A DNA stretch of 63,919 nucleotides, filler included, from Globobulimina sp. (Eukaryota), in the NCBI GenBank assembly GCA_003354225.1. It is 44 parts of 44 records of this genome, joined end to end, with 100 filler letters (N's around TTAATTAATTAA, not from the genome) between each part and the next. Parts side by side here need not be neighbours in the genome. Positions count along the whole stretch, not along the records: positions 8,737 to 10,092 come from PIVH01018048.1; 43 more parts are not named here. The stretch is one strand, 5' to 3'. Below, piece after piece: positions 1,532-55,195 of this stretch. Each line of letters begins with the position of its first letter. Position 1 is the first letter of the stretch. Below the pieces are notes generated by a model that was not told the DNA's origin, did no database searches, and saw only the letters and a list, made by a program, of their open reading frames with translations. Made by a program: the position numbers and the translations under genes.

Positions 1532-2707
1532 TTATAATAATAAATTATTTTCTTCATCCTCAGTCATTTGAACTACAGCAATGTTATCATCAGTTTGTAC
1601 CAATGGTTGGAATTCATTTTCTTCTAAAACACCTGTTGAATCAGTTGGAACTTTAAATACTTTCGATGATACTTGTAATGATCTCTTACTATGCCCACCT
1701 GCATGTTCACCATCATCACTCCCTCCACTTTCCTCATCTTCAGTAACGCCATCCAACTCCGTCTGTAGTCTCATTAAACCACTATTATCCCGTGAAGGTT
1801 TCCTATAAATCGTATTATTTTTCATTAATTTCCTTTTTAATGTGCGTCCCTTTTGTGTGGGATCCACTGTAATATCATCCAATTTTTTACCCAAATATTG
1901 CTTTGCTTTGTCTTTATTTGAAGACATATATTTGAAAGACATACCCTTTTTTTTTAAACCAAGATTACTTGATTTAAATCGCTTAATATCATCATATCTG
2001 TCCTTATATTTTACAATTGCCTCATAATTCAATTGTCGATCCCTTTCGTCCAACGACTTGCTCCGTTGCCGCATGGTAACATCTTTTATTTTAAACATCA
2101 TTAACGAGGCAAGAAACACTAAGATTATATTCTCAATGGTTAATATAATGGAAATAGTGCCCATAGATCCTAATTCCTTTGCAGTGTAACCATTGCCGCG
2201 TTCGGGGTATATATAAATATATAACGACATCGCCCATAACATGCCACAGTTGACAGCCGGTGGTAGCAACGAAGCAGAAATAGCCACACCAATCACAGTG
2301 GCGACATAATCGCCGACTACAGATAGTGCTACGCCTACTCCACTCGCAAAAGCTACGATGGCGCCCGTCGTTAAGCCAATTGAATGACCGCGTGATGACA
2401 TTTCGACAGTTGGCCACGGCCATTCTGCGCTTGGATCATTTTTACTGATTCCTAGAAAGACAAATGCCACAATAAAGCCAACTATTATGCAGATTAATAA
2501 ACTCCAAATCTCATTTTTTAAACCTAATATGGCCAATGATTGCGCCCATTTGAATTTGCGCAAATGGACACCAAATGTTAGCGCCAACACCTTAAAACAA
2601 AACAATATTTGACGATATGGCAAGAAATTTCGGAGCCATGCGATAAATCTAAAACAAGGTTGTATGCGCAACTGAAACAATATCCTGTGGTATGTACAAG
2701 TGTACAA
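1532..2707 (-). CDS. DUF389 family membrane protein with a charged C-terminal tail (true 5' end uncertain)
   Basis: IVAFASGVGVALS...IGVAISASLLPPAVNCG and EMSSRG are typical DUF389 motifs. Confidence 0.8.
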   Translation of the reverse strand: MYTCTYHRILFQLRIQPCFRFIAWLRNFLPYRQILFCFKVLALTFGVHLRKFKWAQSLAILGLKNEIWSLLICIIVGFIVAFVFLGISKNDPSAEWPWPTVEMSSRGHSIGLTTGAIVAFASGVGVALSVVGDYVATVIGVAISASLLPPAVNCGMLWAMSLYIYIYPERGNGYTAKELGSMGTISIILTIENIILVFLASLMMFKIKDVTMRQRSKSLDERDRQLNYEAIVKYKDRYDDIKRFKSSNLGLKKKGMSFKYMSSNKDKAKQYLGKKLDDITVDPTQKGRTLKRKLMKNNTIYRKPSRDNSGLMRLQTELDGVTEDEESGGSDDGEHAGGHSKRSLQVSSKVFKVPTDSTGVLEENEFQPLVQTDDNIAVVQMTEDEENNLLL

Positions 2708-2912
2708 ATACTGTTTCCATTTGACCTTATATTGTTTCTATCTGACAGTATAGCGTTGTCATATGACCGTTTTCTTGCCATATACGGTCAAATATAGTGT
2801 CAGATGGTCAAANNNNNNNNNNNNNNNNNNNNNNNNNNNNNNNNNNNNNNNNNNNNTTAATTAATTAANNNNNNNNNNNNNNNNNNNNNNNNNNNNNNNN
2901 NNNNNNNNNNNN

Positions 2913-4268
2913 AACACAAAATATTATAAAAATCCAGCAATAACCATTCCTTGATATGATCTTTGTACATATCGATATATCCATCATTCCCTTGTAATGC
3001 TGATGGTAAAAATTTACACATAGCAGCTGATAATTCGTATGCATTTCGAACATTACTCTCTGTTTTCAACTTTTCTAACATCGTTTTTCTAATATCGTTT
3101 TTCTTCATATTTTGTTGCATAATTATCGCCATAATGAGCCGATAGGTATATTTCGGAAACGTATTAACGTCACAATAACAATGCATCTTTGACTTGCTTT
3201 GACATCGGGTTTTCCCGCATTTTGCAGCTAACGAAAATGCAAAAAAGCTTTGTAATAAATGTTGATAGGTTTTGTTTTCCAATTTAACCGCATAATTATT
3301 GTGACGCAGTGTAAATAATAATTGTGGATGAATTTGGGAGAGACTCGCTATTTTGTTAAATACATTGACATCAAATCCAGATTTTTGTTGATGTTTAATC
3401 TGAAATATAACCATACATTTCTCAAATATTTCGAAATGAGATCGCTTTATAATTTCCTTGGATGGTTCGCATAACTGATTATTTGGCAATGTCACCCAAA
3501 ATGGTTCGCCTATAAATGAATTTTCTTCTTTTCCAATGGATTTCACATTCAATTGGATTTTATTTTTATTTTCTTCATTAAAATCAGATATAATATCTGC
3601 AATTACTACCACTCCATCATCACATTTATAGCCAACACGTTTAATGTTTTTAAAATTCGTCCTCTTGCTCCATTTTTTAAATGTTCTGTCATACTGAGTT
3701 GAGATAACAAATACAAATAACATATATATAAAAACATGGCAACACAGAACATACGGAGTTATTTTTCCCATTTTCGAGCGAAATATTTGCCATATCCTGA
3801 AATTGACATTTTTTTATCCGATAATAGAGCTTAACTATTAATAACAATGTTTTCTTATCACATTTTGTAAATGTGGATAAATTTTCGACAAATCTTTGTT
3901 CTTTAAAACTATCAAACATTGAGCCATTAATTCCTTCCATTACAAAATATTCAACAATTCTATCTTTAAATGGATTTAATTTCAAAAATGCAGGATCTGA
4001 TAATAAATAATTTAAAATGTATAAAATGTCCGCGTATTCACATTGTATTAATGCTTTTATCGAACCATTCCATTTTAAATGTGTTTTTATATAAAACGCG
4101 GTGATTGTAAACACATTGATTTCTGCAATTGTTTGATATAAAAAACACAAATCATTTTGTATCGCTTGTGTGTGGTCAATATAGCGAGTTAAGTCAGATA
4201 CAAATTCATTTTTGGACTTGGATTTAAATTTTGCTCCATCCATTTCATGCAATTCAAAATATTCTATA
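2913..4268 (-). CDS. Hypothetical protein, partial, two exons (intron 3694-3754)
   Basis: Removing a 61-nt GTATGT...TCAG intron joins ORFs 3689-4252 and 2857-3771 in frame. Confidence 0.6.
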
Positions 4269-7280: not shown

Positions 7281-8636
7281 CATGCCATTGTTCCTCCAGC
7301 ACACCATCAGTAATAATCTCTTGCATGGATCTCTGTCCTGAATGTGGCAGTTCCCATTTTGATTTGGACGCAGCTGCTTTTGCAAGGATTGTCGGTGCGG
7401 GCTTAGCAGGAATCTGTGGTGTGATTGAAACAACTGTTCGGAGGGTGAGCTGTCCATATTTGACAAATATTAAAATCAGAGCAAAGAGCGGCACATCGCA
7501 ATATTGGTACGGTTTCCATATTGATAATATTGCTGGATATGGAGCAGTCAGCGCTGCAGAGGTCAAATCATTTGGCAGTTCGAGCTATGACACAACTTGT
7601 GATAAATCAGGAGGTGCCTCATATTGGCTTTGTGCGGGAGGCTTCCCGTTGGCGGCACCGCTCTCTCTGAAATTAACAAATGATAATAATGAAGTGGTTG
7701 TATTCGATGATTGTATCACTAATTTTGATGGTGGCGCTGAATTCGACTGTGGCAGTAATTTTGGTGGAGGAGTTGAGTAATAATAATATACCATCCATCA
7801 ACACTGTTTTTTAGTGTATGATTGATAGATATATGTACAATTAAAATAATCAGGCAACTCCGACTGCAATGACTTTAATTCCAACCACTAAATCACCGAC
7901 CTCTGTTACAGCAGCACCCGTATCACAGCCAACAACCTCACCAATGTCCGGTCCATCCTGTGGTTTGTTGGCCAAATTTACACTGCAAACTGGAAGTTCA
8001 TTGTGGTGGCTTGCTTTTGTTAAGTATCTATGCACATATTTTATACAAATATCAGTGTTAATATAATGTTTTTAGTTTATTGATGAGTTATGCTGCGGCA
8101 CTGTGACAAAAGTGGAAGTTAAGGATGGCAGTAATTATGTATCATATGTAATTGGTGTAGATTCAACATATAATTATTGGCAATTTGATAATGCGGATTA
8201 TGGTGGTTTGTCATTCAGTGCTCCGCTTACAGTCCGTGTCACAAATACTAACAATGAAGTTATTGAATTTCTTGATGTGCTGCAAAGTGTTGACCCTCCG
8301 AATATATTTTATGGTGATACTAATTTCTGTGTTAAGTATCTATATTGGTACACATACCATATCTATGTTACACATTAAATTAATGCATTAAACACCTAAA
8401 AGACATCAACATCGCCACCAACCGATGCAACAACAATTGCCCCGACCCAAAAACCTACAAATCAACCAATAAAACTACCTACAAATAACCCAAGTTATCA
8501 GCCAACAAAATCACCCACAGACAATCCAACAAATAATCCATCAAAGAATCCAATTCCAGGTACACGCACAGTACAATTAAATGCAAAAACGATTTCCTAT
8601 GTTTTTAATAATGCATAGCACCAACAAAAAATCCAA
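7281..8636 (+). CDS. Expansin-like protein, partial: DPBB domain, CBM63-like domain, Pro/Thr linker, second CBM63-like domain, Pro/Thr tail; introns 7772-7853, 8019-8075, 8331-8402 and probably ~8560-8618
   Basis: DLCPEC...HFDL...AF, RRVSC, GTSQYWYGF and GSSLWWLAF...YNYW motifs. The first three introns were checked by hand and keep the frame. Confidence 0.8.
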
Positions 8637-8737
8637 NNNNNNNNNNNNNNNNNNNNNNNNNNNNNNNNNNNNNNNNNNNNTTAATTAATTAANNNNNNNN
8701 NNNNNNNNNNNNNNNNNNNNNNNNNNNNNNNNNNNNT

Positions 8738-9826
8738 GTGTTATGGATTTTGATATTATTCCGCGGCGTGTACTCGTATATCACGTGGAACACTATCTGG
8801 TCGACTCCGGCCTGGGTCTTCTACGGCAGTTTGGTGATGGTTTGGTTCTTATTCTTCAGTTTGAAAGTGACGCCGAAAACGAATTTCGTAGTATCGGACT
8901 TCTGGCGATGGATGGTGGTGCATATGTGGGTGGAGGTGACTTTCGAGGTCTTCACCACGGTCATCGTGGCCTTCTTGTACCGCGAGATGGGATTAGTAAG
9001 CAAGAAAGCGGCGGAACGGGCGACTTACATCGCTGTGATGCTGTTCTTCTTGACCGCCACCATCGGCGTCGGACATAATTTTTATTGGATTGCGAAGCCG
9101 ACGGGAGTCATTGCGATGGGCTCGGCCTTCTCAACCACGCAAGTCATGCCGCTAATTTTGTTGACAATGGATGCGTGGAAATTCATCCAAATGCGGGAAA
9201 AGGCGGAGTTGGAGCAAGCGAAAGGAAATCAGAAGCACATTATGCGCGGAGTGTGGTTGTTTATGCTCGGCGTCAACTTCTGGAACGTATTCGGTGCCGG
9301 AATCTTGGGCTCGTTTATCAATTTGCCGGTGGTTAATTACTATATGCACTCGACGTATTTGACTGGCAACCACGCCCATGCCGCCATGTGGGGCGTGAAG
9401 GGCAACATTGCCATCGCCGGCGTGCTATTTTGTGTGCAGCATACGGTGAAAGAGGAGTATTGGTCCCCGAAGATTGTGTCGGTGGCCTTTTGGTCGTTGA
9501 ATGGAGGCATTGCGGCTCAGATGTTTTTGTCGATGTTCCCCGCGGGATTGCTCCATATGTATACGGCTATGGCGGAGGGATTGTGGGCCGCGCGGACTCA
9601 CGATATGTACAATTCGGCGCTCTTTCAAAATTTGGCGAAAGGCCGCGCGTTTGGAGGACATATCTTTTTGTGGGGCGGGTTGGTGCCGCTTGTTTACTTT
9701 GTGATTTCCAGGTATTTTTATTTGAAGCCGACCACGAAGAATATTGACAAGAATCGCAAATATGATTCATTTTGGTTGGATGCGGCACATACTGCGCCTT
9801 ATCAGACCCTTAAGAAAGTTAATTAG
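8738..9826 (+). CDS. nod: qNOR-family heme-copper oxidase superfamily protein, Nod (putative nitric oxide dismutase) type; C-terminal half, 5' truncated
   Basis: WRWMVVHMWVEVTFEVF, GVGHNFYWIAKPTG, FSTTQVMP, NFWNVFGAG, NLPVVNYYMH and HAHAAMWGVKG; shows HH->HN and E->Q relative to qNOR. Confidence 0.9.
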   Translation: MLWILILFRGVYSYITWNTIWSTPAWVFYGSLVMVWFLFFSLKVTPKTNFVVSDFWRWMVVHMWVEVTFEVFTTVIVAFLYREMGLVSKKAAERATYIAVMLFFLTATIGVGHNFYWIAKPTGVIAMGSAFSTTQVMPLILLTMDAWKFIQMREKAELEQAKGNQKHIMRGVWLFMLGVNFWNVFGAGILGSFINLPVVNYYMHSTYLTGNHAHAAMWGVKGNIAIAGVLFCVQHTVKEEYWSPKIVSVAFWSLNGGIAAQMFLSMFPAGLLHMYTAMAEGLWAARTHDMYNSALFQNLAKGRAFGGHIFLWGGLVPLVYFVISRYFYLKPTTKNIDKNRKYDSFWLDAAHTAPYQTLKKVN

Positions 9827-10192
9827 AGTTTATAGTAAATCGGTATTTTATATTTTTATTGCAACAGCGATTTTCTTTTTTGTTTTGGACGTCTAATATT
9901 TTGCAGGTGATTTTTTGGATATTGCCTTTTTGTTTTTTTGCTTTTTATATTAATTACTGTCTTCTTCGATTTTAAAGTTGTTGTGGTGTTTTTTTTTTAT
10001 TATTTTATAATTTAATTTATTAGTTCTTTGTTCTTCGAAATTTCTGGTTCTCAGTTCTATCGGATTTACAGTAATTAGTTATTCCAAAAACANNNNNNNN
10101 NNNNNNNNNNNNNNNNNNNNNNNNNNNNNNNNNNNNTTAATTAATTAANNNNNNNNNNNNNNNNNNNNNNNNNNNNNNNNNNNNNNNNNNNN

Positions 10193-16016: not shown

Positions 16017-17372
16017 TGGCAATACCAAATTATCCGAACAACAAAAACGTAAACAACGCCTTTTAAATGATGCAATTATTAAAAATAAACCATCAAATCC
16101 GACATATAATAAAAAAATATTTGTGCCATCAATAACACCAATTCACGATCGATATGACATACAAAATTTGAGTAATAATATTATCGAAACCAAACAAAAT
16201 AATGATCCTACATTGTATTCGATAATTATCTATTTAAAAACAAATAATCCACATTTGTTATATGATCTGCCGTCGCATTTATATCACACTGTATTAAATG
16301 GACGATATTACATTAATCATAATGGCATATTAATGTATAAATTTCAAACAATAAATTGTATGGTTATACCGGATTGTTTACGTAGCAGTGTGTTGCATTG
16401 GGCACACACTAATGTACATAATGGTGGCGCGCGTATGTTGGCTGGGATTACGAGCAGGTATTGGTGGCCTGGATTACGTACTGATATCGCATTATATACC
16501 AAATCGTGCCATAGCTGTCAAACTGTAAAAAGAGGCGGGAAACAACCATTTAAATCAGGAAAAATACAAACGTTTTCCGCTACAGCACCATTTGAATTAA
16601 TTTCAATAGACATAGTTGGACCGTTACCACAAACAAATGATGATAATAGATATATGGTGACAATGATTGATAAATTTTCGCGTTTCTGTATGCTTGTACC
16701 TGTTAAAAATATAAAAACATTAACTGTAATTAAAGCGTATGAGAAATGGATCTCATTATTTGGACCGCCAACAGCGATATTAAGCGATAATGGATCTCAA
16801 TTTATATCTGAAATGTTTAAAGAATATAATAAAGAAAAAGGCATTAAACAGAAATTCGCCACTCCATACTATCCAGAAACAAATGGACAAATAGAGCGCC
16901 TACATAGATGGATTAAGGAGAGATTAACGTTGATAGCAATCGACCTTGGAATTAATTTCGTAGATGGTGATGATGATTGGGACCAATATATTCCATTAAT
17001 TCAACATTCATATAACTCAACACCAAATACAATGACGAAATATTCACCAAACAAAATTATATTTGGTAATGATTTTAAAATTACATTGGATCGCATTAAT
17101 AATGTAATAGTCGATCGTACCATACCATCAGATTATATACGTATGATGAATAATAATAAGAGGATAATACATAATAAAGTCAATATAAATCAAATGCGAT
17201 ACAATAAAAATCGATCGAAGACGTATAATAAATCCCGGAAAAATGCAATAAATTACGCAGTCGGCGATCTTGTTTTGTTGAATATAACTCGTCGATTAAT
17301 AGGTAATAAAAAGAAATTCTCTGCCTCATGGATTGGACCATATGAAATACTCCAAATCAATGACAAACAAAT
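16017..17372 (+). mobile_element. Ty3/gypsy retrotransposon integrase region
   Basis: H-H-C-C zinc finger (HTNVH...CHSC), ISIDIVGP, ILSDNGSQF, YYPETNGQIER and WIGPY. Confidence 0.93.
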
Positions 17373-32022: not shown

Positions 32023-33377
32023 GGGCTAGCTCTGGCGTGCAGGTATCAACAATCAGCAAAATGTGGATGGCGGACTATACCGGCAGTGGCAATGCTGATT
32101 TATTAGCATCAAATAACGCTTATAAGCTATCCACAAGTTATCTATATACATACTGACCATTTCAATATATGCTGTTATAAAAATGAAGGTGGTGCACAAA
32201 ATGGAAACAATTATCAACATATTAATTTTGCGACGGCTTTAGGCAGCAATGGATTTACATCGGTCGGTATAGCTAATTATGGCTTAAATTGTCAATTGGG
32301 ATTATTTATAGTGGGCAGTAAGCAATATAGCGGCTATGTGTATTTACGCAATGCCGCGAGTAGCACCGTGTCGGTGACTGTGAGTTTGAAGGATGCCTCG
32401 CGGAACGATGCCGTGTTAGATAGCGTCGCACTTAATGTGGCAGCCGGTAATCGATGGGCAAAATATGCGTTTACATTCAACAATAAACAGTCGTATAATT
32501 CGAGCTGTTCTAATGATGCGAATGGTTACTTTTCATGCTCTGGGAAATTTGTGATTGCATTGACCAAAGCTGGCGATCAGATTGATGTCGATTTGACGTA
32601 TTTGAGTGCGGCAGCATGGGGTATACGCAATTACACTGGTTCTGGCTCATTGGGCTTGCCGGCAAGGAAAGATTTGGCGGATCAGTTGCAATACGAAGGC
32701 ATACGCAATATTCGTATGGGTGGCTCCATGTGCAATCAAGCTGGATATCGGTGGAAGAACTTCCGAGGACCGCGGGATGAAAGACAGCCGTATCAGGGCC
32801 TATGGTATGGACAGAGAGGTTTGACGCAGAGTCGCGGCTTCGGTATGTTCGAAGTGATTGATTTGTGTCAAGAAATTGGCTGTGATGCGGTGATTACGTT
32901 TAATAATGCGGAGAGAGCGGCGGATATGGCTGATTTTGTCGAGTATTGCTGGGGCGGCGCCAGTACGACATGGGGAGCTCAGAGGATTGCGGACGGCCAC
33001 CCTCAGGTTTATAATGTAAGTTGGATAGAAGTGGGCAATGAGCAGGGGCTAAATCAGAATTTATTGAATCAGATTACGAGTATTTCTGCTGCAATGGATG
33101 CGAAAGTGAAGAGTTTGGGAGGGAGTACTCCGGAGTTTAAGTATTTTATTGGACAGAATTTAGATCAAAATGGACTGAATAATGTGATGACGAATACGTT
33201 TATTAATACATTGAAACCGTTGGGGAATAGAATCTTTTGGGATTTACATAGTGTGTTTTGCTACTTTTGGTGTATTTTTATGTGGATTTATATTGCTATG
33301 TGATATATAGTGTTGGCTGAACCACAGACTGTGGCACAATGGGAGTCGATGGTTACTAATTTTGCGGCAAAAGTAAA
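32023..33377 (+). CDS. GH51 alpha-L-arabinofuranosidase-like glycoside hydrolase, partial and probably intron-containing
   Basis: IRMGG...YRWK..GP..R, FGMFE, ADFVEYC, WGAQRIADGHP and IEVGNE. Confidence 0.85.
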
Positions 33378-48135: not shown

Positions 48136-49379
48136 TTAATAAATTACGAACAAGACTATAAACACAAGGTACATCAGTATCATTATAATCCCATGAATCA
48201 GTTTTAATTTGAGGTTATTTAAATGCATCATTATTAAAAACAAAAACGAAGCAAATATCTGAATTAACATCAATCCAAATGCATTTTTGGTGTTTACATT
48301 ATTTGCATTTCCATCGTATTCATTTGACAACAGATACTTAAACAAAAACGTCGTTCCTAAGACAAAGCATATATTAAATATATTGGAACTAAAACAGTTT
48401 GAAATAACCATATCAATTTTGCGGTTTCCATATTTTTTTGCTAAAATAAATGAAGTTAATGTGTCAGGCAATGATGAACCAATTGCGATGACTGACATTC
48501 CCATAATCGATGCTGAGATATTTAAGCAATATCCGATTGTGGTACATATGCTCAGCAGTATGTATGTTATGACACACATATAAATGATAGATAAACAAAA
48601 CAATAATAAAAAGTTTGCAAAATGTTTGTTATTGTTAATATTTACTATTCTCCCATCATTATTATTATTGCTATTTGGTAGTGGGAACGTTGATAAATAA
48701 TCACTTTCTAAGTCAATAATACTCGAATCAGCAGAATCATCAACAGATAATACATCGAACTGCGTTGGAACTGAAATTGGAATGAGATAATAGAATAATT
48801 TATGGATAGGCTTTGAATAAAATAATTTATAAAACTCACTGATAATATCCATGCATATCATTGTTGATCCTTTTTGTTTATGATTGTCAGCAATAACTGT
48901 CTCATATTCATAATCCGTGTCATTAATATCCATGGTTTTATCACATAAATGTTTGCATTTGTAACTGTTTAGCAATATTATTACATATATAATCCATACA
49001 AAAATTAAACATAATCCTTCAAAACCACTCATTTGTTTCGGTGATGAAATATCATAAAAAATATATAATAAAATGGCTGACATTATGTATGCTAAAATAT
49101 CGCGATACAATGCAAATGAATTAATGCTTTCTGTATTTGCGTATTTTGTGTCTTTGTGGAAAGTATTACAAATAATGACATAGAAACCAGTGACAAATGA
49201 TGTATTATACATTGACGAACCAACAATTGTGGATGGTGCTGGATTCAAATCAAAGTTATCTGAATATAAAAATATTGCTATTAATGATGTAAATAATTCA
49301 GGTGTGGTGAACCAATGGCCATGAGAGTTGCGCCTTGAATGTCTGATGATAACGAGAACTGATTTCCGATATAACTTAA
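48136..49379 (-). CDS. K+-dependent Na+/Ca2+ exchanger (SLC24/NCKX-like), partial, with a 1-nt frameshift near 49306
   Basis: Alpha-1 repeat GATLMAIGS/TPELFTS...IVGSSMYN and alpha-2 repeat AIGSSLPD...SNIFNI. Confidence 0.85.
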
Positions 49380-54163: not shown

Positions 54164-55195
54164 TTATTTTTCCAAATCTTTTTCCATTTTATTAAGCTCA
54201 TTAACCCCATCACACATAAACTGCACCAACGTAAGCTCAGAATATCCCATTCGAAATTTGTTACTGATATCCACCACGGCATCCGCTGCAATCTCCGAAT
54301 GCTCGCCATACAATCCACGGATCTGCATCTTATATTTGATGCCGATGTCATTCAATTTGTCTAAACCTTCCTTGCATAACTCGGGCAACGAGATATGCAC
54401 AGACGCTCTCAATCCGGTCCCCAAATTGGTGGGACAACACGTCACATTTCCATACTGTTTGTCGAACAAAAAGCCATTCGATTTGCCATTGGTCACCTTC
54501 TTGATGCCGGCTTCCATGGCAATCACCGCCTTCTTCAACCGATCAAACACTCCCTTCACATTATTCGTCCTCTCCATCGAGATCAGCCGTAAATGGTCGC
54601 CTTCATTCAACCACACAATGAACGTCTTGGCCTCATTCAAGTAAATACCGCGTCCTTTGGGGAACCATAAATGATATCCGCTGTCAGTCTGCATCGGGTC
54701 GTCATCGCCGGAAAACAAAAAGTGATCATCGATGAATTGCTGTCGCACTTTCTCCTCCATCCCATACAACGGATAATATTGTCCTTTTAAGTCGGCGTCG
54801 CTCTGCAAAGTCGCAAACACCTTTTTCATAATGCCCTCAATCTCCAATTTCACCGCAACGTCGGTCTGCGACGGAGCCAACGGGAAACCATCGATGTTGC
54901 GCGCCACCCGGATTCGCGTCGATTTTATGTTTTTGATGTTGGGAATGTCCCCTTCATTGATGCCTTGCTTCTCGTCCGAGTCTGCGGAAAACGACGATTT
55001 GATGCCGTTGTGATACGTCTTCGTCTGATGATAGTCTTCGATCACAACTCCAAAGATGTCATTGAACAACGAATACGACTCGATATCGCCCGCATGAATA
55101 CCCACCAAACTCTGCGGGTTTTTCACCCCGGTATTTATCGCATTTTTGAGCATGAAGCCATTGGCCGTCTTCAACTCCTTCAACTTCTCAAATAA
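54164..55195 (-). CDS. ATP:guanido phosphotransferase (arginine kinase-like), 5' truncated
   Basis: STRIRVARN, DDHFLF, GRGIY, NEGDHLR, CPTNLGTGLRASVH, RGLYGEHS and DISNK.RMG. Confidence 0.93.
   Translation of the reverse strand, partial: LFEKLKELKTANGFMLKNAINTGVKNPQSLVGIHAGDIESYSLFNDIFGVVIEDYHQTKTYHNGIKSSFSADSDEKQGINEGDIPNIKNIKSTRIRVARNIDGFPLAPSQTDVAVKLEIEGIMKKVFATLQSDADLKGQYYPLYGMEEKVRQQFIDDHFLFSGDDDPMQTDSGYHLWFPKGRGIYLNEAKTFIVWLNEGDHLRLISMERTNNVKGVFDRLKKAVIAMEAGIKKVTNGKSNGFLFDKQYGNVTCCPTNLGTGLRASVHISLPELCKEGLDKLNDIGIKYKMQIRGLYGEHSEIAADAVVDISNKFRMGYSELTLVQFMCDGVNELNKMEKDLEK

What the first reader, a model, noticed from the sequence alone, without database searches (positions are those of the whole stretch)
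8738..9826. Nod-type (nitric oxide dismutase-like) qNOR homologue in apparently eukaryotic host DNA
Seen: ORF residues H62, E66, H113, N114 (AAT at 9077) and Q135 (CAA at 9140), plus H212 and H214, within HMWVEVTFEVF / GHNFYWIAKPTG / STTQVMP / HAHAAMWGVKG. Known: this spacing matches the qNOR catalytic residues H508/E512/H559/H560/E581 (Geobacillus numbering). Replacement of the third non-heme-iron His by Asn and of the Glu by Gln is the signature of the putative NO dismutases of Methylomirabilis-type oxygenic denitrifiers, proposed to catalyse 2NO -> N2 + O2. Seen: the stop is followed by about 265 nt of very T-rich, UTR-like DNA with no next gene, and the raised coding GC resembles the phosphagen kinase contig. 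Inference: a protist, probably a benthic foraminiferan, encodes a horizontally acquired Nod-like enzyme that could complete denitrification to N2 without NosZ and make intracellular O2 in anoxic sediment. Caveats: Nor/Nod-like genes have been reported from denitrifying foraminifera, Nod activity has not been biochemically proven, no intron is visible, and the N-terminal half with the quinol-binding site is missing.
Basis: partly seen in the sequence, partly recalled or inferred. Interest (0 to 1): 0.9.

Follow-up and report, generated by a model that had tools for sequence, protein, structure and literature searches.

The report
Known foraminiferal Nod-type NO enzyme gene
This is the back half of a gene, already published from denitrifying foraminifera, for a membrane enzyme that looks like the bacterial "nitric oxide dismutases"; the sequence reading is right, but whether it makes nitrous oxide or nitrogen plus oxygen is still unknown.

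Summary
Window 8738-9826 (+) is a 362-codon frame, open at its 5' end because the 1356-bp contig (8737-10092) starts there. A full-length 801-aa protein, 97% identical, also lacks His328 and Glu332.

The gene is foraminiferal. It is 97% identical to a protein labelled Globobulimina turgida. It sits in a 100/100-supported clade with Bolivina argentea, inside the Nod-type clade that holds NC10 and HdN1 sequences, and not among canonical qNORs. No prokaryote genome scanned exceeds 55% identity. The 3' flank and the codon usage fit a eukaryotic host.

None of this is new. Woehle et al. 2018 described these Globobulimina genes and their likeness to Nod. Gomaa et al. 2021 proposed Nod function for foraminifera. 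No Nod has been characterised biochemically. Acetylene-blocked foraminifera accumulate N2O, so N2O formation is the likelier outcome, at roughly 55:30 against dismutation.

Earlier notes of this scan cover bacterial and phage nod genes only, not this one.

The parts
8737..10092 (.). One 1356-bp contig of a fragmented assembly, bounded on both sides by N44-TTAATTAATTAA-N44 spacers
   Evidence: List of N runs; sequence read; 44 contigs of 1354-1356 bp
8738..9826 (+). 3' half (362 codons plus TAG) of a Nod-type qNOR-family gene, cut at the 5' contig edge. It corresponds to residues 440-801 of the 801-aa homologue P0390.
   Evidence: Pfam COX1 7.8e-32; 3AYF E 8e-64; 351 of 362 residues identical to P0390, no gaps
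8921..8935 (+). H62 (CAT 8921-8923) and E66 (GAG 8933-8935), matching the non-haem-metal ligand H508 and E512 of Geobacillus qNOR; both conserved
9074..9079 (+). H113 (CAT) and N114 (AAT), matching H559 and H560. The third metal-binding His is Asn, the Nod mark.
   Evidence: Nod definition in PMC3413370 section 7
9140..9142 (+). Q135 (CAA), matching E581. The active-site Glu is Gln, the second Nod mark.
   Evidence: PMC3413370 section 7
9371..9379 (+). H212 and H214 in NHAHAAM, both conserved. That they are the haem b3 and haem b axial ligands is my recollection of the cNOR/qNOR structures, not a call result.
   Evidence: Both columns are His in nearly all signature classes listed, Nod-type and canonical alike; coordinates
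9656..9658 (+). G307 (GGA), matching quinol-binding Asp746 of Geobacillus qNOR. The Asp is lost, so part of the quinol site can be tested inside the fragment.
   Evidence: Alignment (chain ...vpdt ends at 747; canonical rows D, Nod-type rows mostly G); role of Asp746 from PMC3413370 figure 4 legend
9827..10092 (+). 266-nt T-rich non-coding 3' flank, probably 3' UTR and downstream DNA. GC 0.24, T 0.54, with a T10 run at 9989. No frame of 60 aa or more within it and no terminator-like site.

Best explanation
The contig carries the 3' half of a nuclear gene of a benthic foraminiferan, Globobulimina or a very close relative. The gene encodes a Nod-type member of the quinol-NOR (NorZ) branch of haem-copper oxidases and is one copy of a multi-variant family already described from denitrifying foraminifera.

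Shown here:
- The protein keeps the haem ligands in the fragment, two of the three His ligands of the non-haem metal, and Glu512.
- The third His is Asn, Glu581 is Gln and quinol-site Asp746 is Gly.
- Its 97%-identical full-length homologue also lacks His328 and Glu332.

Inferred:
- It sits in a membrane, probably the mitochondrial inner membrane as Woehle et al. proposed, and turns over the NO made by NirK at a haem b3/non-haem-metal centre.
- It cannot take electrons from quinol at the canonical site.

My commitment on products: in foraminifera it most likely yields N2O, acting as an NO reductase fed by an unidentified non-quinol donor, rather than N2 + O2. My odds are about 55:30, with the remaining 15% for mixed or other chemistry.
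For: Family and signature:
- establish the family and the residues.
- Among the 403 fetched homologues of 180 aa or more, the signature columns fall mainly into two classes: xRHEHNQHHG (Nod-type) and H.HEHHEHHD (canonical). P0001 reads HEHNQHHG.

Placement (careful IQ-TREE, 71 rows, 338 columns; supports are ultrafast bootstrap/SH-aLRT):
- P0001 + P0390 + the G. turgida protein: 100/98.
- A 9-row clade with Bolivina argentea: 100/100.
- A 48-row clade with the NC10 and HdN1 sequences: 100/100.
- All 53 Nod-signature rows: 100/100, stem 0.98, nested among canonical qNOR rows.

Eukaryotic host:
- EukProt labels on P0011 (97% identity) and P0067 (72%).
- The best prokaryote match among the 80 loci kept from 185,579 species genomes is 55% identity.
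- The 3' flank has GC 0.24 and no gene or terminator-like site.
- RSCU correlates at r 0.81 with the window's phosphagen kinase ORF, against 0.14-0.43 for three bacterial Nod-type genes of similar GC3.
- Other contigs in the window hold a retroelement integrase and a Na/Ca exchanger.

Gene alive: 31 of 33 listed coding differences among co-occurring variants are synonymous.

Literature (passages read):
- Woehle 2018, PMC6783311: Globobulimina Nor sits next to M. oxyfera Nod; one copy lies beside a eukaryote-specific gene and was PCR-validated; N2O was measured under acetylene.
- Gomaa 2021, PMC8153729: no quinol site, Nod-like catalytic changes, about 10-fold higher expression than NirK, and acetylene data pointing to N2O as an intermediate.
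- Woehle 2022, PMC9231491: Nor is present in all 10 Peruvian rotaliids sampled.
Against: - Without a quinol site there is no known electron entry route, which is exactly why Ettwig et al. doubted that such proteins are reductases (PMC3413370 section 7).
- The N2O seen under acetylene could come from associated bacteria.
- No foraminiferal NosZ has been found, so a dismutase would neatly explain N2 production.
- The contig is only 1356 bp and carries no flanking host gene, so the nuclear location of this particular copy rests on composition, codon usage and near-identity to labelled transcripts, not on linkage.
- The phosphagen kinase ORF used as the host codon-usage reference was not itself shown to be a host gene.
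- The kinds of the sequencing runs are not on record, so I have no expression evidence of my own.
Confidence: 0.55

Rival explanations
1. Same gene and same host, but the enzyme is a true NO dismutase (2 NO -> N2 + O2). It would let the foraminifer finish denitrification without NosZ and supply O2 inside an anoxic cell. 2021.
For: - All three sequence marks of putative Nod are present: H560N, E581Q and loss of the quinol site, matching the definition in PMC3413370 section 7.
- The sequence branches in the 48-row clade with the NC10 and HdN1 sequences at 100/100 support.
- No NosZ was found in foraminiferal genomes or transcriptomes (PMC6783311 and PMC9231491, passages read).
- Expression is reported as high (PMC8153729).
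Against: - No Nod of any organism has been characterised biochemically or structurally (PMC11549561, passage read; bioRxiv 10.1101/2023.11.21.568154, passage read).
- Globobulimina accumulate N2O under acetylene, and Woehle et al. concluded the function is not Nod-like.
- Gomaa et al. concede the same point.
- The 23-row clade holding the foraminiferal sequences sits on a stem of 0.55 changes per column away from the bacterial Nod-type rows, so function may have shifted.
Confidence: 0.3
2. The contig comes from a bacterium associated with the foraminifer (contamination or a symbiont), not from the host genome.
For: - The family is otherwise bacterial.
- The ORF has no intron.
- Its GC3 (0.68) is the highest of the longest open frames of the window's 44 contigs.
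- The contig carries no host gene.
Against: - None of the 80 loci kept from the scan of 185,579 prokaryote species genomes exceeds 55% identity to the 97%-identical full-length homologue.
- It is 97% identical to proteins labelled Globobulimina turgida in EukProt and clades with Bolivina argentea.
- The 266-nt 3' flank has 24% GC and neither a gene nor a terminator-like site.
- RSCU r is 0.81 with the phosphagen kinase ORF against 0.14-0.43 with bacterial Nod-type genes.
Confidence: 0.04
3. A dead or truncated copy (pseudogene fragment) of the gene family, with no function of its own.
For: - Only half the gene is in hand.
- Many sequence variants co-occur in the laid runs.
Against: - The truncation coincides exactly with the contig edge.
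- All 362 codons are open and align without gaps to a full-length 801-aa protein at 97% identity.
- 31 of 33 listed coding differences are synonymous.
Confidence: 0.05

Closest known systems
Globobulimina 'Nor' genes (Woehle et al. 2018, Curr Biol, PMC6783311) and the Nod-like Nor transcripts of Nonionella stella and Bolivina argentea (Gomaa et al. 2021, Sci Adv, PMC8153729)
   Same: - 97% identity to a protein labelled Globobulimina turgida and 72% to one labelled Bolivina argentea.
- Same clade at 100/100 support.
- Same Nod-like catalytic changes and missing quinol site as those papers describe.
   Different: Nothing of substance. This is a partial copy, and it differs at 11 of 362 residues from the nearest full-length protein. 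I could not see the papers' supplementary alignments, so I cannot say which published paralogue or clade (I or II) it matches.
Putative NO dismutases of Ca. Methylomirabilis oxyfera (DAMO_2434, DAMO_2437) and gammaproteobacterium HdN1 (Ettwig et al. 2012, PMC3413370)
   Same: - His-to-Asn and Glu-to-Gln changes and loss of the quinol site.
- Same 48-row clade as an NC10 partial sequence (P0097) and the HdN1 gene (L154).
   Different: - About 50-56% identity only.
- Eukaryotic host.
- The host accumulates N2O under acetylene.
- I had an NC10-labelled partial sequence, not the named DAMO proteins themselves.
Canonical quinol-dependent NO reductase (qNOR/NorZ), e.g. Geobacillus stearothermophilus 3AYF
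   Same: Same fold family (E 8e-64 for the fragment, 3e-130 for the full-length homologue). H508, E512, H559 and the two haem His are conserved.
   Different: - H560N, E581Q, D746G, H328I and E332R.
- Branches outside all 13 canonical qNOR rows in the tree.

Membership tests
Haem-copper oxidase superfamily, NOR branch (Pfam COX1 PF00115) | COX1 domain above Pfam's gathering score | tested here: met
   111.1 bits against a cut-off of 34.8, E 7.8e-32
Canonical quinol-dependent NOR (qNOR/NorZ) | Three His plus a Glu around the non-haem metal (H508, H559, H560, E512 in Geobacillus numbering) | tested here: not met
   H62, H113 and E66 are present, but H560 is N114
Canonical quinol-dependent NOR (qNOR/NorZ) | Active-site Glu581 | tested here: not met
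   Q135
Canonical quinol-dependent NOR (qNOR/NorZ) | Quinol-binding His328 and Asp746 | tested here: not met
   Asp746 is G307 in the window. His328 lies outside the fragment, but it is Ile325 in the 97%-identical full-length P0390.
Nod-type qNOR homologues (putative NO dismutases, Ettwig et al. 2012) | One metal-binding His consistently replaced by Asn | tested here: met
   N114, AAT at 9077-9079; definition from PMC3413370 section 7
Nod-type qNOR homologues (putative NO dismutases, Ettwig et al. 2012) | Catalytic-site Glu replaced by Gln | tested here: met
   Q135, CAA at 9140-9142
Nod-type qNOR homologues (putative NO dismutases, Ettwig et al. 2012) | No proper quinol-binding site | tested here: met
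   D746G in the window. H328I and E332R only in the full-length homologue P0390, since that part of this copy is not on the contig.
Nod-type qNOR homologues (putative NO dismutases, Ettwig et al. 2012) | Groups with the NC10 and HdN1 sequences rather than with canonical qNOR | tested here: met
   48-row clade at 100/100; all 53 Nod-signature rows at 100/100
Nod-type qNOR homologues (putative NO dismutases, Ettwig et al. 2012) | Catalyses 2 NO -> N2 + O2 | not testable with these tools
   Unproven for any member (PMC11549561). The foraminiferal physiology points to N2O.
Foraminiferal Nor/Nod-like gene family (Woehle 2018; Gomaa 2021) | Near-identity to, and a shared clade with, sequences labelled as foraminiferal | tested here: met
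   97% to the G. turgida protein P0011 and 72% to the B. argentea protein P0067; 9-row clade at 100/100
Foraminiferal Nor/Nod-like gene family (Woehle 2018; Gomaa 2021) | Located in host nuclear DNA | tested here: inconclusive
   The AT-rich non-coding flank, host-like codon usage and absence of a close prokaryote match fit this, but the 1356-bp contig carries no linked host gene.

The most novel reading that the evidence does not exclude
The foraminiferal enzyme really does dismutate NO, wholly or alongside N2O formation, so a eukaryote would make its own O2 in the dark in anoxic sediment and bypass NosZ. In addition, the 100/100-supported 23-row clade around it includes unnamed metagenome genes at 60-68% identity that sit in microsatellite-rich, gene-poor DNA. 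No prokaryote match exceeds 55% identity. That clade may therefore be a wider eukaryotic radiation of this enzyme than the benthic rotaliids described so far.
Probability: 0.25. Interest if true: 0.85.

Novelty: already known. Interest (0 to 1): 0.2.

Why it matters
Foraminifera are the only eukaryotes reported to carry out complete denitrification, and they matter for marine nitrogen loss. Whether their single NO-converting enzyme releases N2O, a greenhouse gas, or N2 + O2 changes both the nitrogen budget and how these cells survive anoxia. This contig adds no new gene or idea to that question. It confirms what has been in print since 2018-2021. Its only small contributions are two. First, loss of the quinol site (D746G) can be read from the C-terminal half alone. 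Second, the closest relatives outside the labelled foraminifera also look eukaryotic.

Tried and rejected
- Whole-genome search of the window's own assembly: none is held.
- NCBIfam: 0 families for P0001.
- Other Nor pieces in the window: tblastn with two full-length homologues hit only 8738-9823, so the 5' half is not here.
- Expression: no listed run is on record as RNA. All four runs laid (X1, X2, X6, X9) are Logan contigs of unrecorded kind, so I make no claim on expression, transcript ends or polyadenylation. Cover fades between 9933 and 10092 in all four. No poly(A)-signal hexamer (AATAAA or ATTAAA) is in the flank.
- Read-level check of AAT at 9077: only contigs were available, and 38 difference rows were not shown.
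- Fetching DNA of the 97%-identical full-length gene: the metagenome scan returned nothing above 68% identity, so introns, 5' UTR and neighbours of the true orthologue could not be examined.
- Donor lineage: the sister of the 23-row clade among bacterial Nod-type rows is unresolved, because the relevant fork is drawn open at 80/90. I name no donor.
- Search for biochemical work on Nod: one search was too loose and gave nothing relevant. One search listed 14 papers, none a characterisation judging by title or abstract start.
- Earlier notes of this scan: none for this genome. Look-alikes were bacterial or phage nod genes only.
- Structure prediction, complex prediction and ESM Atlas were not run. 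Alignment to solved qNOR at E 3e-130 made them unnecessary.

Full report
**What is at the coordinates**

The window is not one stretch of genome. It is 44 contigs of 1354-1356 bp joined by N44-TTAATTAATTAA-N44 spacers. The finding lies on the contig 8737-10092.

Frame 8738-9826 (+) is open for 362 codons and ends in TAG. It starts at the contig edge, so the first codon, GTG, is not a start codon. The frame aligns with residues 440-801 of an 801-aa homologue.

- H62, CAT at 8921
- E66, GAG at 8933
- H113, CAT at 9074
- N114, AAT at 9077
- Q135, CAA at 9140
- H212 and H214 at 9371 and 9377

The 266 nt after the stop have GC 0.24 and T 0.54. No frame of 60 aa or more lies within them, and they hold no terminator-like site.

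**What family it is**

Pfam gives COX1 at 7.8e-32. Against solved structures the best match is Geobacillus stearothermophilus qNOR (3AYF, E 8e-64, query 1-336 against chain 446-774). Other qNORs follow, and cNOR NorB comes far behind.

That alignment pairs the residues as follows:

| This ORF | Geobacillus qNOR |
|---|---|
| H62 / E66 | H508 / E512 |
| H113 / N114 | H559 / H560 |
| Q135 | E581 |
| G307 | D746 |

D746 is one of the two residues that hydrogen-bond the quinol (PMC3413370, figure 4 legend).

A full-length protein from a metagenome, P0390 (801 aa), is identical at 351 of 362 positions with no gaps. Aligned to 3AYF at E 3e-130, it has Ile at H328 and Arg at E332.

Ettwig et al. 2012 define the putative NO dismutases by one metal-binding His replaced by Asn, a nearby Glu replaced by Gln, and no proper quinol site (section 7 read in full). 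This gene meets the first two directly. It meets the third partly within the window and fully in its near-identical homologue.

Across the 403 fetched homologues of 180 aa or more, the ten signature columns fall mainly into two classes. Nod-type rows read xRHEHNQHHG and canonical rows read H.HEHHEHHD. A few intermediates exist, such as seven rows that keep H328 but have N, Q and G.

**Whose gene it is**

The nearest database proteins are:
- P0002, 90% identity, from a metagenome.
- P0011, 97% identity over 230 aa, labelled EukProt Globobulimina turgida.
- P0067, 72% identity, labelled Bolivina argentea.

A careful maximum-likelihood tree was built from 71 rows and 338 columns covering only the region present in the window, with four cNorB rows as outgroup. 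Supports below are ultrafast bootstrap/SH-aLRT.

| Clade | Support | Stem |
|---|---|---|
| The window's protein + P0390 + the G. turgida protein | 100/98 | - |
| 9 rows, including B. argentea | 100/100 | 0.28 |
| 23 rows, the additional rows all unnamed metagenome sequences | 100/100 | 0.55 |
| 48 rows, including an NC10-labelled partial sequence and the HdN1 gene | 100/100 | 0.84 |
| All 53 Nod-signature rows | 100/100 | 0.98 |

The 53-row clade is nested among the 13 canonical qNOR rows. The tool warns that several canonical and outgroup rows are long branches. The clades cited here are not among them.

A scan of one genome from each of 185,579 prokaryote species with P0390 kept 80 loci out of 135 confirmed. 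None was above 55% identity.

Within the window, the ORF's GC3 (0.68) is the highest among the longest open frames of the 44 contigs. Its codon usage correlates at r 0.81 with the window's phosphagen kinase ORF (54167-55195, minus strand, GC3 0.62, Pfam 1e-59). The figure is 0.14-0.43 for three bacterial Nod-type genes of similar GC3, and about 0 for low-GC3 ORFs. That pattern fits a codon-biased host gene better than recent contamination. The samples are small, however, and the kinase was not itself shown to be a host gene. Other contigs carry a retroelement integrase and a Na/Ca exchanger.

The contig has no linked host gene, so the nuclear location of this copy is inferred. [quoted passage not shown]

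**Variation**

Contigs from four public runs of four studies were laid on the stretch. Their kinds are not on record and their names are coded. They gave thousands of very short pieces with many differences and no joints, so there is no sign of an intron here.

Of the 33 listed differences inside the ORF, 31 are synonymous and 28 fall on third codon positions. The variants are therefore under purifying selection. None of the 40 listed differences is at 9077-9079, but 38 rows were not shown.

**How it probably works**

Shown: a haem-copper-oxidase fold with the haem ligands of this half intact, a non-haem-metal site of His2-Asn plus Glu, Gln in place of Glu581, and no canonical quinol site.

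Inferred: it handles the NO produced by the foraminiferal NirK in a membrane, probably the mitochondrial inner membrane (Woehle 2018 model).

What it makes is open. No Nod has been characterised biochemically or structurally (PMC11549561, passage read; bioRxiv 10.1101/2023.11.21.568154, passage read).

For N2O:
- Globobulimina denitrification was measured as N2O accumulating when N2O reductase is blocked with acetylene, and the authors concluded that the function is not Nod-like.
- Gomaa et al. grant that such data argue for Nor-type chemistry.
- The ODZ preprint cites foraminifera as evidence that Nod-family proteins may yield N2O.

For dismutation:
- The full Nod signature and clade membership.
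- No electron entry site.
- No foraminiferal NosZ.

I put N2O formation at about 55%, dismutation at about 30%, and mixed or other chemistry at the remainder.

**Comparison with what is known, and novelty**

- Woehle et al. 2018 (passages read) reported these genes from a Globobulimina genome and transcriptome, placed them beside the M. oxyfera Nod, and compared the catalytic residues.
- Gomaa et al. 2021 (abstract and passages read) reported the missing quinol site and the shared catalytic changes in two further species and proposed oxygenic denitrification.
- Woehle et al. 2022 (passages read) found Nor in all ten Peruvian rotaliids sampled.
- A full-text search for 'foraminifera' plus 'nitric oxide dismutase' found five papers.

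The gene, its signature, its host and the hypothesis are thus already known. I could not open the papers' supplements, so I cannot say which published paralogue this copy is.

**Noticed beyond the finding**

The unnamed metagenome genes that join the foraminiferal clade (L001, L002, L077 and L080 at 64-68% identity; L003-L005 at 59-61%) are single intronless ORFs of about 800 codons with GC3 0.61-0.77. They lie in lower-GC DNA.

L001 was looked at more closely:
- An (ATCC)n microsatellite lies in its 5' flank.
- A (CTCCT)n run of 62 copies lies just upstream of the gene.
- 42-bp and 21-bp minisatellites lie downstream.
- None of 6 flank ORFs has a Pfam match.

These look eukaryotic as well. 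The eukaryotic radiation of this enzyme may therefore be wider than the labelled benthic species. I did not identify the organisms.

**Verdict**

The finding is already known, so interest is low for discovery, although the underlying open question remains a good one.

Noticed in passing
whole window (N runs listed): The window is a chain of 44 contigs of 1354-1356 bp joined by N44-TTAATTAATTAA-N44 spacers. Neighbouring features on different contigs are therefore not genomic neighbours.
   Followed up: yes
L001 (gene 1596-4043), L002, L077, L080; L003-L005: Unnamed metagenome genes at 59-68% identity form a 100/100-supported 23-row clade with the foraminiferal sequences. Their DNA looks eukaryotic: L001 has (ATCC)n and (CTCCT)n microsatellites upstream and 42-bp and 21-bp minisatellites downstream, and 0 of 6 flank ORFs has a Pfam hit. 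No prokaryote genome exceeds 55% identity. The organisms were not identified.
   Followed up: partly
window 54167-55195 (-): Phosphagen (ATP:guanido) kinase ORF (Pfam 1e-59) with GC3 0.62. Its codon usage correlates at r 0.81 with the Nod-type ORF. Both stand out from the roughly 0.25-0.35 GC3 of most ORFs in the window.
   Followed up: partly
window 16018-17370 (+): Open frame spanning the whole contig with retroelement integrase domains (rve 3.4e-18, Integrase_H2C2 5.5e-16), GC3 0.25.
   Followed up: no
window 48139-49377 (-) and 32107-33300 (+): A Na/Ca exchanger domain ORF (2.7e-34), and an ORF with a weak alpha-L-arabinofuranosidase ASD1-domain match (2.3e-12).
   Followed up: no
window 7325-7780 (+) and 8103-8378 (+), the contig before the finding: Two open frames on one contig share a similar motif (...LTNDNNEVVVFDD... 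and ...VTNTNNEVIEFLD...). This suggests two exons or repeats of one domain. No family search was run.
   Followed up: no
window 8737-9826, laid runs X1, X2, X6, X9: Summed word depth of laid contigs is very high over the ORF and falls steeply after the stop codon. There are many co-occurring, mostly synonymous variants. This fits many paralogues, alleles or species sharing the coding region but not the flank. Contig depth is not a measure of copy number or expression.
   Followed up: partly
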